From Nitrospirota bacterium (lineage in GTDB: Bacteria > Nitrospirota > UBA9217), in the NCBI GenBank assembly GCA_963737155.1, contig CAVTRN010000002.1, forward strand, positions 756,960 to 788,959: a stretch of 32,000 nucleotides of DNA. Direction: 5' to 3'. Under the pieces are notes generated by a model. It saw nothing but the letters and a program-made list of their open reading frames with translations. It was not told the DNA's origin and did no database searches. Below are positions 11,969 to 15,832 of the stretch, one piece after another; position 1 is the first letter of the stretch; every line of letters begins with the position of its first letter. The position numbers and the translations under genes are program-made.

Positions 11969-12538
11969 TTATATCCCTTCCTGCTCGGGAAAGTATTTCT
12001 TCCTCAACTTGTTTTGATGGCCCTGTTCGACGAATGTGTCGGAGGTCCCGTCTCGCTTGCGGTGTACGGCTTCTATTTCGCGATCAAGGAAAAGTTCAAG
12101 TAGGGCGCTGCCGAAGCCCTGGGCAAGAACATTCTCTTTAACGGGACGAGCTTCATGCCGCTGACGCGACGAACGGATCAGCCTCGCGTCCGGCGGTTTA
12201 ACGAACCGTGCATTGACGGCCGCTGCGTCGATGCCTTTCGCTTCTGGCAACGTCGCTGCCGACAGGACCGGGAGCACGGTATGGCCCAGCGCCATCAACG
12301 CAACGTCGCCGCAACTTCTCGGGAGCTCGGCCTCTCCGATGTGAAGGGACCGGGCGAACTCCCGTTCTCCGAGGGGCGTCCGGGCAGCCTTATCACTTTT
12401 TCTCTCGGATACCGGATGTCGGCAGATCCGCTGTGTTTCAGCGCCAAGCCGAGCATGGCAGACCAATTCAATGTTGTCCTTCGAGGCCTTGACCACGAGG
12501 TTCGGAATATGTCTGAGATAGGAAGGGTCCTGTATACG
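11969..12538 (-). pseudogene. dxs: Eroded C-terminal remnant (about 190 codons) of 1-deoxy-D-xylulose-5-phosphate synthase
   Basis: The minus-strand frame reads QDPSYLRHIPNLVV...SKDNIEL...GDVALMALGHTV...GIDAAAVNARFVKPPDARLI...VKENVLAQGFGSALLE...SDTFVEQGHQNKLRKKY. It is collinear with the last third of DXS (FDLSYLRCIPxMV, DVAIxxxG, VxxRFVKPLD, TVEEN, GGxGSxV, PDxFxxxG). Conserved positions are replaced, and the N-terminal roughly 430 codons are absent. Confidence 0.65.
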
Positions 12539-12763: not shown

Positions 12764-13915
12764 ATGATCATCTCGATACCGGCAATTCTTATTCTACTTA
12801 TCCTTTGTGCGGGAGCCTATCATCTTTTCTCTCTCTATTGCGTATGGGAATTTTTCCGGGAGGAAATAAGCGAGCCGGCGCTTCGGCCTCACATCCCCGT
12901 ATCAATCATCAAACCGCTCAAGGGAATCGAACCCGGATTCGGGGAAAACCTCAGGACTTTTTGCGAGCAGGACTATCCCGAATTTGAGGTCCTGCTGGGA
13001 TTTTCCGATCCGGCCGACGACGCCATCCCGCGGGTCAATGGGACGGTTGATACCCTAATGGATTGCAATGTCCGTACGGTCATCGGCGCGGGTCGCCCGG
13101 CTGTGAACCGGAAGGTGTCGAATCTTGGAGGGCTGGCGGAATCAGCCCGGCACCCCATCCTCGCTATCAGCGACAGCGACATGAGAGTGGACCGAGCCTA
13201 CCTCGGGCGAAGCATGGAGGAATACTTCAGCGCCCGAAACGTCGGCCTGGTCACGTCTCTGTACAAGATCTCAAACCCCGAATCGATCGGCGCCGCGCTG
13301 GAGTCCCTAACGATCGCGCTCGATTTTATTCCGTCCGTTCTTGTCGCCCGTCGACTGGAGGGCATTACGTTCGGATTAGGGGCATCTTTGGTGCTCTCGA
13401 AGAAGGCGTTGGAGGAGATCGGCGGCTTTGCCGCGATCGGCGACTACCTTGCAGACGATTACCAGCTCGGCAACCGGCTTTGGAAGCGGGGGTATTTGAT
13501 CGTCCTTTCCCGGTATGTCATCGAGAACGTTGTGGGTCCCATGAGCATTGCTGATTACTACAGGCATCAGCTCCGGTGGGCGCGGACCTACCGGTCATCA
13601 AGGCCCAAGGGTTTTGCCGGTTATGGCATTACGCACATGGTTCCCTTTTGCCTGCTTCTCCTCATTGCGGCAGGTCCGAACGCCCTCTCGCTGTCTGTAC
13701 TTGGATCTGCCGTCATGGTGCGGTACGGCCTTGCATATGTCCTGTACAGAAAGGTAATTCACTCACGGCAGTGGCTGAAATGGATTGTGCTCGTGCCTGT
13801 AAAAGACGTCCTAGGCTTCGGTATCTGGGCCTGGAGTTTCACGAGCCGGAAAGTCCGCTGGCGGGGCAACGAGTATCGTATCTTGAAAGACGGAAAGCTC
13901 CGGCAGACGGAGTAG
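12764..13915 (+). CDS. hpnI: Hopanoid-associated glycosyltransferase HpnI (ceramide-glucosyltransferase-like, GT family 21 type)
   Basis: 383 aa with an N-terminal TM. Motifs are PVSIIKPLKG, EFEVLLGFSD, SDSDMRV (DxD) and QLRWARTYR (QxxRW-like). It sits in the hpn context. Confidence 0.8.
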   Translation: MIISIPAILILLILCAGAYHLFSLYCVWEFFREEISEPALRPHIPVSIIKPLKGIEPGFGENLRTFCEQDYPEFEVLLGFSDPADDAIPRVNGTVDTLMDCNVRTVIGAGRPAVNRKVSNLGGLAESARHPILAISDSDMRVDRAYLGRSMEEYFSARNVGLVTSLYKISNPESIGAALESLTIALDFIPSVLVARRLEGITFGLGASLVLSKKALEEIGGFAAIGDYLADDYQLGNRLWKRGYLIVLSRYVIENVVGPMSIADYYRHQLRWARTYRSSRPKGFAGYGITHMVPFCLLLLIAAGPNALSLSVLGSAVMVRYGLAYVLYRKVIHSRQWLKWIVLVPVKDVLGFGIWAWSFTSRKVRWRGNEYRILKDGKLRQTE

Positions 13916-13979: not shown

Positions 13980-15212
13980 ATGCTATCTTCGTTCCCGTTG
14001 TTTTTGCTGACAATGTCCTTGTGCTTGTTTGCTTGCACCACCATGGTGCAAAAGCTCCCATACCCTCTGATCAACTTGGACGAGCAGGTAAAAGTGGTCA
14101 CCGTGCCAGTCCCGGTCATTGCTGCCAACCCCAACGAAGGACTCTACCGTGGCGCCATGGTTGCATTTCTTATCCACAACAAGAATGACGAAGTCAGCAT
14201 GCTGCTGGCCCCGCAGGTGAATTTCAATCAGAACTTCGGTGTCTCCACTTCCCTTTTCGGCGCCTACTACCCGTCACCCGCCCAGAGCTTGGTATTCAAT
14301 ATCTCCAAGTCCACTTACGTGGACGATGACTACGAGTTTAGTTACGTTGACCGGTCGCTTTTCGGCGGCAAGGCAGAGGTCCGCTCCTTTTTCGACATAT
14401 TTACTGATGGCTCTGCGCGTTTCTTTGGCTTCGGACCTAACAGCCTGCAGTCGAACCAGACGAATTTCGGTGACAGGGAGTCGGGCATCACCCTATCGCT
14501 GGCTTACAGGATCGCGAAAAATCTCCAGTTGGTCGTGGGAGACCGTTTCAGACGTGTAGATATTGAACAGGGAGCAGTGCAGTCGGTTCCCTTCATCGGC
14601 GATAAGTTCTTCGGGGCTGAGGTGCCTGGCATTGATGGCTTCTCCGTTCACGCGCAAAAGCTCGGTCTTGTTTACAGCACCCTCGACTTCCCCGACTTGC
14701 CGACTGTCGGGCTATACGCCGAGACGTCGGTCGAAGACAGCGCGAAGGACTTCGGCAGCAGCGCGAGCTTCGTTCATTACCATGCCGAGGTAAAGGGATA
14801 TGTGCCGTCCGAGAGCGCACGCTGGATCAGTGTTCTCCGGGTCGCCTACAACCAGACTCCCGGCAACGATGTTCCCTTCCTTGAGCGAAGCATCCTTGGA
14901 GGGGAGACCACTTTGCGCGGGTATGGTCGCAACCGTTTTATAGATTCCACGTCCCTGCTTCTCAACCTGGAAGAGCGAATCAGTGTCTTTCGCTGGAATG
15001 TATTCAACGTTAGGGCAGACTGGGAAGTGGCGCCGTTCGTTGATTACGGCGGAGTTATGAGAACGCTCGGAACTTTGCAGCGCGAAGATTTCAAAATCAA
15101 TCCCGGCATTGGTTTCCGCGCCGTGGTTCGTCCTAATATTGTCGGTAGGTTGGATGTTGGCTTTGGTGATGAGGGGGCGGCTGTATTTGTCGGCCTCGCC
15201 TATCCATTCTAG
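13980..15212 (+). CDS. Omp85/surface-antigen (D15)-type outer-membrane beta-barrel protein, POTRA-less, possible lipoprotein
   Basis: 410 aa. The N-terminal signal ends LCLFAC, a possible lipobox. The motif LGGETTLRGYGRNRF is present, and the C-terminus ...VFVGLAYPF ends in an aromatic residue as in beta-barrel OMPs. The start codon is uncertain because no clear SD is seen. Confidence 0.6.
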   Translation: MLSSFPLFLLTMSLCLFACTTMVQKLPYPLINLDEQVKVVTVPVPVIAANPNEGLYRGAMVAFLIHNKNDEVSMLLAPQVNFNQNFGVSTSLFGAYYPSPAQSLVFNISKSTYVDDDYEFSYVDRSLFGGKAEVRSFFDIFTDGSARFFGFGPNSLQSNQTNFGDRESGITLSLAYRIAKNLQLVVGDRFRRVDIEQGAVQSVPFIGDKFFGAEVPGIDGFSVHAQKLGLVYSTLDFPDLPTVGLYAETSVEDSAKDFGSSASFVHYHAEVKGYVPSESARWISVLRVAYNQTPGNDVPFLERSILGGETTLRGYGRNRFIDSTSLLLNLEERISVFRWNVFNVRADWEVAPFVDYGGVMRTLGTLQREDFKINPGIGFRAVVRPNIVGRLDVGFGDEGAAVFVGLAYPF

Positions 15213-15537
15213 AAACCACTATTTTCTCGCGGAGCAAGGGACACAGATCTTTCTAATACGGCAGTTGATGCGATGGTTTCTTATTAAATCAATAAGATGC
15301 TTTATATTCTTTTAAATCTGTTAGGTGAGGAATTAATTGCAATTGCCGTAGTTTTTATAAATTTGATATATTATTATTAACTAAAGAATTAAGTATCATA
15401 ATTGTCCACAACTGCTAAGAGTTCTGGCCAAAGTAACAATACTTTAGTTATATTGATATTTGAGATGAACTGCGCTATCGTTTCTTTAAATATCGACGGG
15501 TGAATGGTTTAAGTGAGCGGAAAATCAAGAAAGTTGA

Positions 15538-15566
15538 TTGACAATTTCTTTCTTTTTTACTAGAAT
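15538..15566 (+). promoter_or_regulatory. Near-consensus sigma70-type promoter (TTGACA-N17-TAGAAT)
   Basis: TTGACA is at 15538-15543 and TAGAAT at 15561-15566, with an exact 17-nt T-rich spacer. It is embedded in an AT-rich intergenic region upstream of hpnJ. Confidence 0.55.
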
Positions 15567-15704
15567 GCCACTCGAAAAGGGCATCGTTCGCATCTTACGA
15601 AGAAACAGGAAGCATAGAGGGGAACGGACATCTTAACACCCCGTGATCTATCCAAGCGATGGAGCATAGAGGTGGAGGAGCGTTCGGATGACATTGATTA
15701 CTGT

Positions 15705-15757
15705 GAGGAGGATCTGAAGGGTGATTTTCTGCTTCAGTCGCTTCTCCTCATTTTTTT
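15705..15757 (+). terminator. Intrinsic-terminator-like hairpin inside the hpnJ leader
   Basis: A two-tier stem pairs GAGGAG (15705-10) with CTCCTC (15744-49) and CTGAAG (15714-19) with CTTCAG (15732-37). An A-TTTTTTT run (15751-57) follows immediately. It lies 76 nt upstream of the hpnJ GTG. Confidence 0.55.
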
Positions 15758-15832
15758 CTTATTTCTGGATTCCTGCCGGGGCACAGTAACGGTCTGCTCA
15801 GGTCGGGCTTCATAAAGCTGGGGGAAATAAAA

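What the first reader, a model, noticed from the sequence alone, without database searches (positions are those of the whole stretch)
15538..15832. Promoter, structured leader of about 185 nt and strong terminator upstream of hpnJ: candidate riboswitch, attenuator or sRNA controlling the hopanoid operon
A near-consensus promoter (TTGACA-N17-TAGAAT, 15538-15566) is followed about 140 nt later by a two-tier hairpin plus a T7 run (15705-15757). I see no convincing promoter between that terminator and the hpnJ GTG at 15833. Expression of hpnJ-hpnK-DMT-shc-hpnA would therefore seem to require read-through.

The leader has internal order. GCATAGAGG occurs twice (about 15612 and 15664). CGTTCG(C/G)AT also occurs twice (about 15585 and 15681), in a mirrored A-B...B-A arrangement. 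GAGGAG occurs twice (15675-80 and 15705-10), and either copy could pair with the terminator's CTCCTC (15744-49). That is the logic of alternative terminator and antiterminator folds.

Two mini-ORFs complicate or enrich the picture. (a) ATG 15688 lies 7 nt after GGAGGAG and encodes MTLITVRRI. Its tandem AGG-AGG Arg codons and UGA stop lie on the 5' arm of the terminator, so a translating or stalled ribosome would block terminator formation. (b) GTG 15721 lies 9 nt after GAGGAGG and encodes a 22-aa Phe-rich peptide, MIFCFSRFSSFFSYFWIPAGAQ, spanning the terminator.

I looked for a cobalamin-riboswitch B12 box, since HpnJ is B12-dependent, and did not see one. I do not recognise this leader as any known RNA family. 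Alternatively, the promoter-to-terminator unit is a stand-alone sRNA of about 185 nt.
Basis: partly seen in the sequence, partly recalled or inferred. Interest (0 to 1): 0.72.

Follow-up and report, generated by a model that had tools for sequence, protein, structure and literature searches.

The report
Scar of a deleted idi gene
The "structured leader" upstream of the hopanoid gene hpnJ is the leftover of an isopentenyl-diphosphate isomerase gene (idi) that lost 442 bp, still flanked by that gene's old promoter and terminator-like hairpin; this is ordinary gene decay, not a riboswitch.

Summary
The promoter (TTGACA-17-TAGAAT, 11/12) and the hairpin plus U7 (-19.9 kcal/mol, z -3.2) are real. 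The riboswitch, attenuator and sRNA readings fail.

In the closest relatives (HpnJ 86-91% identical) the same promoter drives an intact 180-aa type-1 IPP isomerase gene (idi). The same hairpin follows the idi stop codon by 7-8 nt, and hpnJ comes next.

Window 15572-15612 aligns to the idi 5'UTR plus its first 16 nt, with the start codon changed from ATG to ACG. Window 15613-15697 aligns to the last 85 nt of idi and carries two in-frame stops. The 442 bp in between are deleted.

The leader folds no better than shuffles (z +0.13). Rfam finds nothing. Neither mini-ORF is conserved.

Two other lineages lost idi through different deletions. Overall, the idi-hpnJ spacer diverges about as fast as synonymous sites; only the hairpin base stands out as conserved.

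Most likely the inherited promoter still drives hpnJ-hpnK-shc by read-through of a leaky inherited terminator. That step is inferred, not shown.

Interest is low.

The parts
15538..15566 (+). Sigma-70-type promoter TTGACA-N17-TAGAAT. It is the ancestral promoter of idi and probably of the idi-hpnJ operon. The expected transcription start is about 15573-15575.
   Evidence: scores it 11/12. Homologous L082 2267-2295 has identical hexamers and a diverged spacer. Sigma-70-like promoters scoring 10-11 of 12 also lie upstream of idi or its remnant in L165, L167 and L172.
15572..15612 (+). 5' end of the idi remnant: the former 5'UTR plus the first 16 nt of the coding sequence. The start codon has mutated from ATG to ACG at 15597-15599, and a TAG stop lies seven codons in.
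   Evidence: The pairwise alignment pairs window 15572-15612 with L082 2302-2342 at 71% identity, and 15596-15612 with L165 2326-2342 at 88%. Frame-0 translation reads LTKKQEA* against Idi MEKQEE.
15612..15613 (+). Deletion junction. 442 bp of idi (L082 and L165 positions 2343-2784) are missing. The length is not a multiple of 3. GAAG microhomology lies at or within a few bases of both breakpoints.
   Evidence: One search gives the same boundaries against both L082 and L165.
15613..15697 (+). 3' end of the idi remnant: the last 85 nt, Idi residues about 153-180. In-frame stops lie at 15644-15646 (Trp codon TGG to TGA) and 15689-15691. The ancestral stop TAA now reads TGA at 15695-15697.
   Evidence: tblastn aligns SIEGNGHLNTP*SIQAMEHRGGGAFG*H to Idi 153-180 at 61% identity, E 4e-6. 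Nucleotide identity to L082 2785-2884 is 76% over the aligned block window 15613-15712, which runs 15 nt past the ancestral stop. NCBIfam identifies the relatives' gene as type-1 IPP isomerase.
15705..15749 (+). HP1, a two-tier hairpin inherited from the idi-hpnJ spacer. The outer stem pairs GAGGAGGA with UUCUCCUC and the inner stem pairs CUGAAG with CUUCAG.
   Evidence: -19.9 kcal/mol, z -3.2. The outer 8 bp are present in all 8 aligned sequences, with 94% of cells paired against 44-60% when partners are slid. The closing pair is GC, GU or AU across lineages.
15751..15757 (+). U7 tract one base after HP1. Together with HP1 it forms an intrinsic-terminator-like signal.
   Evidence: A U-run is also present in L082 (U6), L174 and L172. 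It is weaker in L165 and absent in L167.
15790..15805 (+). HP2, a small GC-rich hairpin (CGGUCU-GCUC-AGGUCG) in the spacer. Its role is unknown.
   Evidence: The CGG...CCG base is conserved in the alignment. By eye, L082 has CGACUU-GCUC-AAGUCG and L174 has CGGC-UUCG-GCCG. Support is weak.
15820..15835 (+). Shine-Dalgarno sequence GGGGGA and the GTG start of hpnJ at 15833.
   Evidence: HpnJ scores 695.6 bits on TIGR03471 (cutoff 577.6), aligned from residue 1. Relatives start at the same position.

Best explanation
The interval 15572-15697 is the scar of a type-1 isopentenyl-diphosphate isomerase gene (idi, Nudix fold). In sister lineages this gene sits between the Omp85-family gene and hpnJ.

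In the window's lineage idi was destroyed by:
- a 442-bp internal deletion;
- loss of the start codon (ATG to ACG);
- in-frame stop codons.

The flanking signals are inherited, not newly evolved for regulation. The promoter at 15538-15566 is the old idi promoter. The hairpin plus U7 at 15705-15757 is the old idi-hpnJ intercistronic hairpin, which lies 7-8 nt after the idi stop codon in relatives.

How it probably works today (inferred):
- The promoter starts transcription near 15574.
- RNA polymerase crosses about 130 nt of non-coding gene remnant.
- Part of the transcripts end at the hairpin and U7, giving a by-product RNA of about 185 nt.
- The rest read through into hpnJ-hpnK-EamA-shc-hpnA.

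The hairpin would thus be a constitutive, leaky intra-operon terminator that lowers operon output. It would not be a ligand- or peptide-sensing switch.
For: Shown:
1. The relatives' gene order is hpnI, Omp85, idi, hpnJ, hpnK, EamA, shc. idi is intact in L082/83/84, L165/166, L174, L168/169, L177 and L176.
2. That gene is a type-1 IPP isomerase by NCBIfam. L168 scores 127.3 against a cutoff of 127, and 110.4 against 105.8. L082 falls just below.
3. The window is colinear with the two ends of idi, with one 442-bp gap at identical boundaries against two relatives. The protein-level remnant has E 4e-6 and two in-frame stops.
4. The promoter hexamers are 12/12 identical to L082, while only 9 of 17 spacer bases match.
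5. The HP1 outer stem is present in all six distinct lineages.
6. The leader is not unusually stable and has no Rfam match.
7. The covariance model of the spacer matches only the sequences it was built from and near-identical copies of them. The 94 sources searched comprised the window and 93 loci.

Supporting the read-through inference:
- No sigma-70-like site lies between HP1 and hpnJ in the window, L082, L165, L167 or L172.
- Each of these has a 10-11/12 promoter upstream of idi or its remnant, including the three lineages in which idi is dead.
- In L168 and L177, idi and hpnJ are only 22-23 nt apart, which suggests that co-transcription is the ancestral state.
Against: - No transcript data exist, so promoter activity, termination efficiency and read-through are all inferred from sequence.
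- U7 directly after a -20 kcal/mol hairpin looks like an efficient terminator. If it is efficient, hpnJ needs another promoter. A non-sigma-70 promoter in 15758-15832 cannot be excluded, and a moderately conserved block lies at 15768-15792.
- Covariation support for HP1 is a single event and is not significant against shuffles.
- Overall spacer identity (0.67-0.85) is close to identity at four-fold degenerate sites of hpnJ (0.60-0.77), so most of the spacer is near neutral.
- The date of the deletion is unknown, so promoter retention could reflect recency rather than selection.
Confidence: 0.8

Rival explanations
1. HP1 plus U7 is an efficient terminator that simply ended the idi transcript. 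hpnJ has its own promoter, not of the sigma-70 type, in the 83-nt spacer or is driven from elsewhere. The promoter at 15538 would now make only a junk RNA of about 185 nt.
For: The terminator geometry in the window is canonical: -19.9 kcal/mol, then A plus U7. A block of invariant columns lies at 15768-15792 downstream of the hairpin. From my own knowledge, hopanoid genes in some alphaproteobacteria are controlled by ECF sigma factors.
Against: There is no sigma-70 match in the spacer in any of the five lineages scanned. By eye, sigma-54-like GG/GC doublets are intact only in L165 and L174. L168 and L177 have 22-23-nt idi-hpnJ spacers, which implies co-transcription. Strong promoters persist upstream of dead idi in three lineages.
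Confidence: 0.25
2. Ribosome-sensitive attenuation. Ancestrally, a ribosome finishing idi 7-8 nt before HP1 masked the base of the hairpin and favoured read-through. In the window the 9-codon ORF (ATG 15688, stop 15715-15717, preceded by GGAGGAG at 15674-15680) took over that role after idi was lost.
For: The idi stop lies 7-8 nt before the HP1 5' arm in L082, L165 and L174. Window-lineage substitutions created both the GGAGGAG and the ATG. L172 keeps a 34-codon ORF that ends at the ancestral stop, and it keeps the U-run. L167 has no ORF reaching HP1 and has lost the U-run.
Against: This rests on three lineages. The mini-ORF is unique to the window. AGG is not rare. About 24% divergence in a decaying gene easily creates a Shine-Dalgarno plus ATG combination in purine-rich sequence. 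Nothing links translation of such an ORF to any signal relevant to hopanoids.
Confidence: 0.08
3. The promoter-to-terminator unit (about 15574-15757) is a stand-alone small RNA exapted from the gene remnant.
For: A strong promoter and a terminator-like 3' end bracket about 185 nt. A hairpin at 15625-15686 has z = -2.0.
Against: The unit exists only in this lineage; relatives have a coding gene or different remnants there. The whole unit has z +0.13. There is no Rfam match. No conserved single-stranded seed region is apparent by eye.
Confidence: 0.05
4. A ligand-binding riboswitch, for cobalamin, an isoprenoid intermediate or something else, controls the hopanoid operon.
For: Only its position: upstream of a B12-dependent radical SAM gene, with a terminator-like hairpin.
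Against: There is no Rfam hit at gathering thresholds, and only spurious lncRNA hits at permissive ones. The would-be aptamer is decayed coding sequence and is absent as such in relatives. It has no excess stability. No antiterminator pairing partner was seen by eye.
Confidence: 0.02

Closest known systems
Bacterial pseudogene remnant made by an internal deletion (here of idi, the type-1 IPP isomerase, which from my own knowledge is dispensable in bacteria using the MEP pathway)
   Same: It is colinear with both ends of an intact orthologue, has lost its start codon, carries a frameshifting 442-bp deletion and in-frame stops, and diverges at about the synonymous rate.
   Different: The remnant keeps a near-consensus promoter and sits in front of a probably functional operon. 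It is therefore probably still transcribed as a 5' leader.
Intra-operon (intercistronic) intrinsic terminator or attenuating hairpin
   Same: A GC-rich stem followed by a U-tract lies between two co-oriented genes of one pathway, just after the upstream stop codon, with no recognisable promoter after it.
   Different: Activity is untested. In the window the upstream gene is gone, so the element now lies in a 5' leader. The U-tract is degenerate in one relative lineage (L167).
Leader-peptide transcription attenuators (trp or his type)
   Same: A short ORF overlaps the 5' arm of a terminator hairpin.
   Different: There are no regulatory codon runs for a relevant amino acid and no alternative antiterminator helix. 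The ORF is not conserved. AGG is not rare in this genome.
Cobalamin riboswitch (Rfam RF00174)
   Same: It would lie upstream of a B12-dependent enzyme gene.
   Different: There is no match to the covariance model at any threshold, and no conserved core is present.

Membership tests
idi (type-1 IPP isomerase) pseudogene | Sequence homology to an intact idi at the syntenic position. | tested here: met
   Window 15572-15612 and 15613-15712 align to L082 2302-2342 and 2785-2884. tblastn gives E 4e-6 to Idi residues 153-180. The relatives' gene matches NF002995 and TIGR02150 at or near their cutoffs.
idi (type-1 IPP isomerase) pseudogene | The reading frame is disrupted so that no functional protein can be made. 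| tested here: met
   The start codon is ACG, not ATG. There is a 442-bp deletion (not a multiple of 3) and stops at 15644-15646 and 15689-15691. No ORF of 60 aa or more lies in 15316-15832.
Intrinsic (Rho-independent) terminator | A stable GC-containing hairpin immediately followed by a U-tract. | tested here: met
   -19.9 kcal/mol, z -3.2, then A plus U7. The strict pattern scan misses it because of the internal loop and the long apical loop.
Intrinsic (Rho-independent) terminator | Transcripts actually end at the U-tract. | not testable with these tools
   This needs Term-seq or 3'-end mapping.
Riboswitch (any Rfam family, including cobalamin) | A match to a curated covariance model. | tested here: not met
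   There are 0 hits at gathering thresholds over 32 kb. Only eukaryotic lncRNA noise appears at E up to 10.
Riboswitch or structured cis-regulatory leader (novel) | An aptamer-like structure conserved in orthologous leaders, with covariation. | tested here: not met
   Orthologous positions are idi coding sequence or different remnants. The leader has z +0.13.
Leader-peptide attenuator | A conserved leader ORF plus mutually exclusive antiterminator and terminator helices. | tested here: not met
   ORFs differ in frame, length and presence across 8 sequences. No upstream complement to the HP1 5' arm was seen by eye. Upstream GGAGGAG copies would pair with the same 3' arm and still leave a helix before the U-run.
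Small regulatory RNA | An independent transcription unit conserved across relatives. | tested here: not met
   The promoter and terminator are present, but the intervening sequence is lineage-specific decay. Expression is not testable.
Hopanoid side-chain operon (hpnI, hpnJ, hpnK, shc, hpnA) as context | Matches to the equivalog models. | tested here: met
   HpnJ scores 695.6 (cutoff 577.6), HpnI 316.3 (310) and HpnA 454 (367.65). HpnK scores 207.7, below its cutoff of 232.6. SHC domains are found.

The most novel reading that the evidence does not exclude
HP1 is a ribosome-sensitive intercistronic terminator that couples transcription of the hopanoid side-chain genes to translation of the upstream ORF. 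After idi was deleted, the window's lineage evolved a new 9-codon ORF (GGAGGAG at 15674-15680, ATG at 15688, stop inside the hairpin arm) that restores ribosome masking. Lineage L167 instead lost the U-tract. These would be two alternative compensations for losing the upstream gene.
Probability: 0.07. Interest if true: 0.5.

Novelty: new member of a known kind. Interest (0 to 1): 0.15.

Why it matters
Mainly as a caution. A near-consensus promoter, a GC-normal 'leader' with repeats and a good terminator can be the two ends of a deleted gene. Comparison with close relatives settles the question at once.

Biologically, it shows that the idi copy attached to the hopanoid cluster in this Nitrospirota clade is expendable. 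It was lost by at least three different deletions. The operon's promoter and the base of the intercistronic hairpin are kept.

This gives a modest, testable hint that the hairpin tunes hpnJ-shc expression. It does not open a new class of regulator.

Tried and rejected
- Rfam at gathering and permissive thresholds found nothing relevant.
- Folding the whole leader and sub-windows gave no excess stability. The exceptions were HP1 and a marginal hairpin at 15625-15686 (z -2.0, chosen after the fact). That hairpin is not shared by L165 and is not significant in L082.
They returned only relatives at 76% identity or less, whose upstream regions are unrelated. The informative relatives came from exact-protein contig look-ups.
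- A covariance model of the idi-hpnJ spacer, searched over the window and 93 loci, found only the sequences it was built from and near-identical copies of them. The element is therefore specific to this clade.
- The covariation test on HP1 and HP2 was not significant against shuffles, because the pairs are mostly invariant.
- Conserved small ORFs in the spacer were rejected.
- A sigma-54 promoter in the spacer, checked by eye, was rejected because the -24 GG and -12 GC doublets are not conserved.
- AGG-AGG as a rare-codon stall site was rejected.
- Literature searches found no described riboswitch or leader for hopanoid genes, and nothing on idi-hpnJ linkage.

Full report
**Observation**

- TTGACA at 15538, a 17-nt spacer and TAGAAT at 15561, 11 of 12 matches.
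- GCATAGAGG at 15612 and 15664.
- CGTTCG(C/G)AT at 15585 and 15681.
- GAGGAG at 15675 and 15705; CTCCTC at 15744; T7 at 15751-15757.
- ATG at 15688 and GTG at 15721.

The hairpin 15705-15749 is more stable than chance: -19.9 kcal/mol, z -3.2. The leader as a whole is not. 15574-15765 has z +0.13 and 15574-15704 has z +0.14. Exact 9-mer repeats arise in 5% of shuffles. No Rfam family matches.

**Context**

The window carries a hopanoid side-chain cluster:

| Gene | Coordinates |
|---|---|
| hpnI | 12764-13915 |
| Omp85-family gene | 13980-15212 |
| intergenic region (620 nt) | 15213-15832 |
| hpnJ | 15833-17257 |
| hpnK | 17257-18132 |
| EamA transporter | following hpnK |
| shc | 18653-20680 |
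| hpnA | 20614-21666 |

The HpnJ protein is found identically on a 3.08-Mb contig. Its closest named homologues are labelled Nitrospirota MAGs. An independent Logan assembly has an identical intergenic region.

**What the leader is**

I fetched contigs that encode the closest HpnJ homologues. In those at 91%, 89% and 86% identity the upstream order is Omp85, then a 180-aa NUDIX gene, then hpnJ. This covers L082-84, L165/166 and L174.

Homologues at 82-83% identity also carry this gene, separated from hpnJ by only 22-23 nt (L168/169, L177). So does L176 at 79%.

NCBIfam identifies the gene as type-1 isopentenyl-diphosphate isomerase. L168 passes both equivalog cutoffs and L082 falls just below.

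Alignment of the window to L082 and to L165 gives the same picture:
- The promoter is homologous. Both hexamers are identical and 8 of the 17 spacer bases differ.
- Window 15572-15612 corresponds to the idi 5'UTR and its first 16 nt. The start codon is ACG instead of ATG.
- A single 442-bp gap follows, near short GAAG microhomology.
- Window 15613-15697 corresponds to the last 85 nt of idi.

Translation of that tail reads SIEGNGHLNTP*SIQAMEHRGGGAFG*H against Idi AIKRNGHLYTPWLILAMEHMAGGSFGGH (61% identity, E 4e-6, two in-frame stops). The 'leader' is therefore a gene scar.

- The second GCATAGAGG, the second CGTTCGGAT and the first GAGGAG lie in former Idi codons (...MEHMAGGSFG...).
- The first GCATAGAGG is at the deletion junction.
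- The first CGTTCGCAT lies in the poorly conserved former 5'UTR.

**Flanking signals**

The hairpin HP1 is inherited. In idi-intact relatives it begins 7-8 nt after the idi stop codon.

Its outer 8-bp stem is present in all eight aligned sequences, which represent six distinct lineages. 94% of cells are paired, against 44-60% when partners are slid. The closing pair is GC, GU or AU in different lineages.

The covariation measures are not significant, because most pairs never vary.

The inner stem and loop differ freely between lineages. A U-run follows the hairpin in the window (U7), L082 (U6), L174 and L172. It is weaker in L165 and absent in L167.

Overall spacer identity (0.67-0.85) is like identity at four-fold degenerate sites of hpnJ (0.60-0.77). 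Only local blocks are constrained: the HP1 base, a CGG...CCG mini-hairpin and the Shine-Dalgarno sequence.

A covariance model of the spacer, searched over the window and 93 other loci, matched only the sequences it was built from and near-identical copies of them. The spacer element is therefore clade-specific.

**Recurrent loss of idi**

- L167/170/171 keep about 125 nt of the idi 5' end, also with ACG in place of ATG. They lack nearly all the rest.
- L172/173 keep short 5' fragments and the last 100 nt or so, with further small deletions.
- A neighbour-joining tree of hpnJ-hpnK DNA puts the window next to the idi-intact L082, with 90% bootstrap support.

The window's loss is therefore independent of the others, and three different deletions are involved.

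**Mechanism**

This part is inferred. Every lineage has a 10-11/12 sigma-70-like promoter upstream of idi or its remnant. None has one between HP1 and hpnJ. The 22-23-nt idi-hpnJ spacers in L168 and L177 imply that co-transcription is ancestral.

The simplest model is that the promoter at 15538 still drives the hopanoid operon. HP1 plus U7 would act as a constitutive leaky terminator, yielding a by-product RNA of about 185 nt.

I put about 0.95 on the gene-remnant identity and about 0.5-0.6 on read-through from this promoter.

**Rivals**

- **Own promoter for hpnJ (0.25).** An unrecognised promoter in the 83-nt spacer, with HP1 acting as a full terminator. This is the main rival.
- **Ribosome masking of HP1 (about 0.08).** idi ancestrally, or the window-specific 9-codon ORF now, would block hairpin formation. 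This is an attractive story resting on three lineages. AGG is not rare here.
- **Exapted sRNA (0.05).** Nothing positive supports it.
- **Ligand riboswitch (0.02).** Nothing positive supports it.

Extra copies of the 5' arm would pair with the same 3' arm and leave a helix before the U-run. No upstream complement of the 5' arm was seen by eye.

Neither mini-ORF is conserved in frame, length or presence.

**Verdict**

This is an ordinary pseudogene remnant with an inherited promoter and an inherited terminator-like hairpin. It is a new instance of a known kind and of low interest.

Two points have minor value. idi has decayed repeatedly in this clade's hopanoid cluster. The hairpin's base is conserved, which makes it a testable candidate for an intra-operon attenuator.

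Noticed in passing
window 11969-12496 (- strand): A 175-aa ORF matches only the C-terminal domain of Dxs (TIGR00204 model positions 466-598 of 616; 62 bits against a cutoff of 466), and its sequence looks degenerate. The 267 nt before hpnI show no obvious Dxs-like ORF. This is probably a second truncated isoprenoid-precursor gene beside the hopanoid cluster, alongside the idi scar.
   Followed up: partly
L167/L170/L171 about 2715-2860; L172/L173 about 2716-2860: idi upstream of hpnJ has decayed in two further lineages by different deletions. L167 shares the ATG-to-ACG start-codon change with the window, although the window groups with idi-intact L082 (90% bootstrap). This is either a parallel mutation or recombination.
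   Followed up: yes
window 15611-15620 and 15663-15672: The exact 10-mer AGCATAGAGG occurs twice. One copy sits at the 442-bp deletion junction. The other lies 52 nt downstream in former idi codons. In relatives the two sites read CATCAAGAGG and GCATATGGCC, so the identity arose in the window's lineage. It could be chance (5% of shuffles give an exact 9-mer repeat) or a template-switch or conversion patch.
   Followed up: partly
window 13980-15212: An Omp85-family outer-membrane protein gene is conserved between hpnI and idi/hpnJ in L165, L167, L170, L172/L173 and L174. It also lies directly upstream of idi in L168/L169 and L177. It might have a hopanoid-related outer-membrane role. The hopanoid distribution and transport preprint I checked does not mention it.
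   Followed up: no
window 15213-15537: A very AT-rich stretch (GC about 31-36%) lies upstream of the promoter. Parts of it are homologous to the L082 intergenic region: 81% identity over 83 nt, and 69% over 179 nt. The second match runs on into the promoter and the idi 5' remnant (window 15435-15612). The stretch also carries several weaker promoter-like sites at 15343, 15425 and 15453.
   Followed up: no
L167 and L170 2435-2680 (- strand): The L167 group has about 300 nt of extra sequence in the Omp85-idi intergenic region, with a called 81-aa minus-strand ORF that has no Pfam hit. The window and L082 lack it. It may be a small insertion.
   Followed up: no
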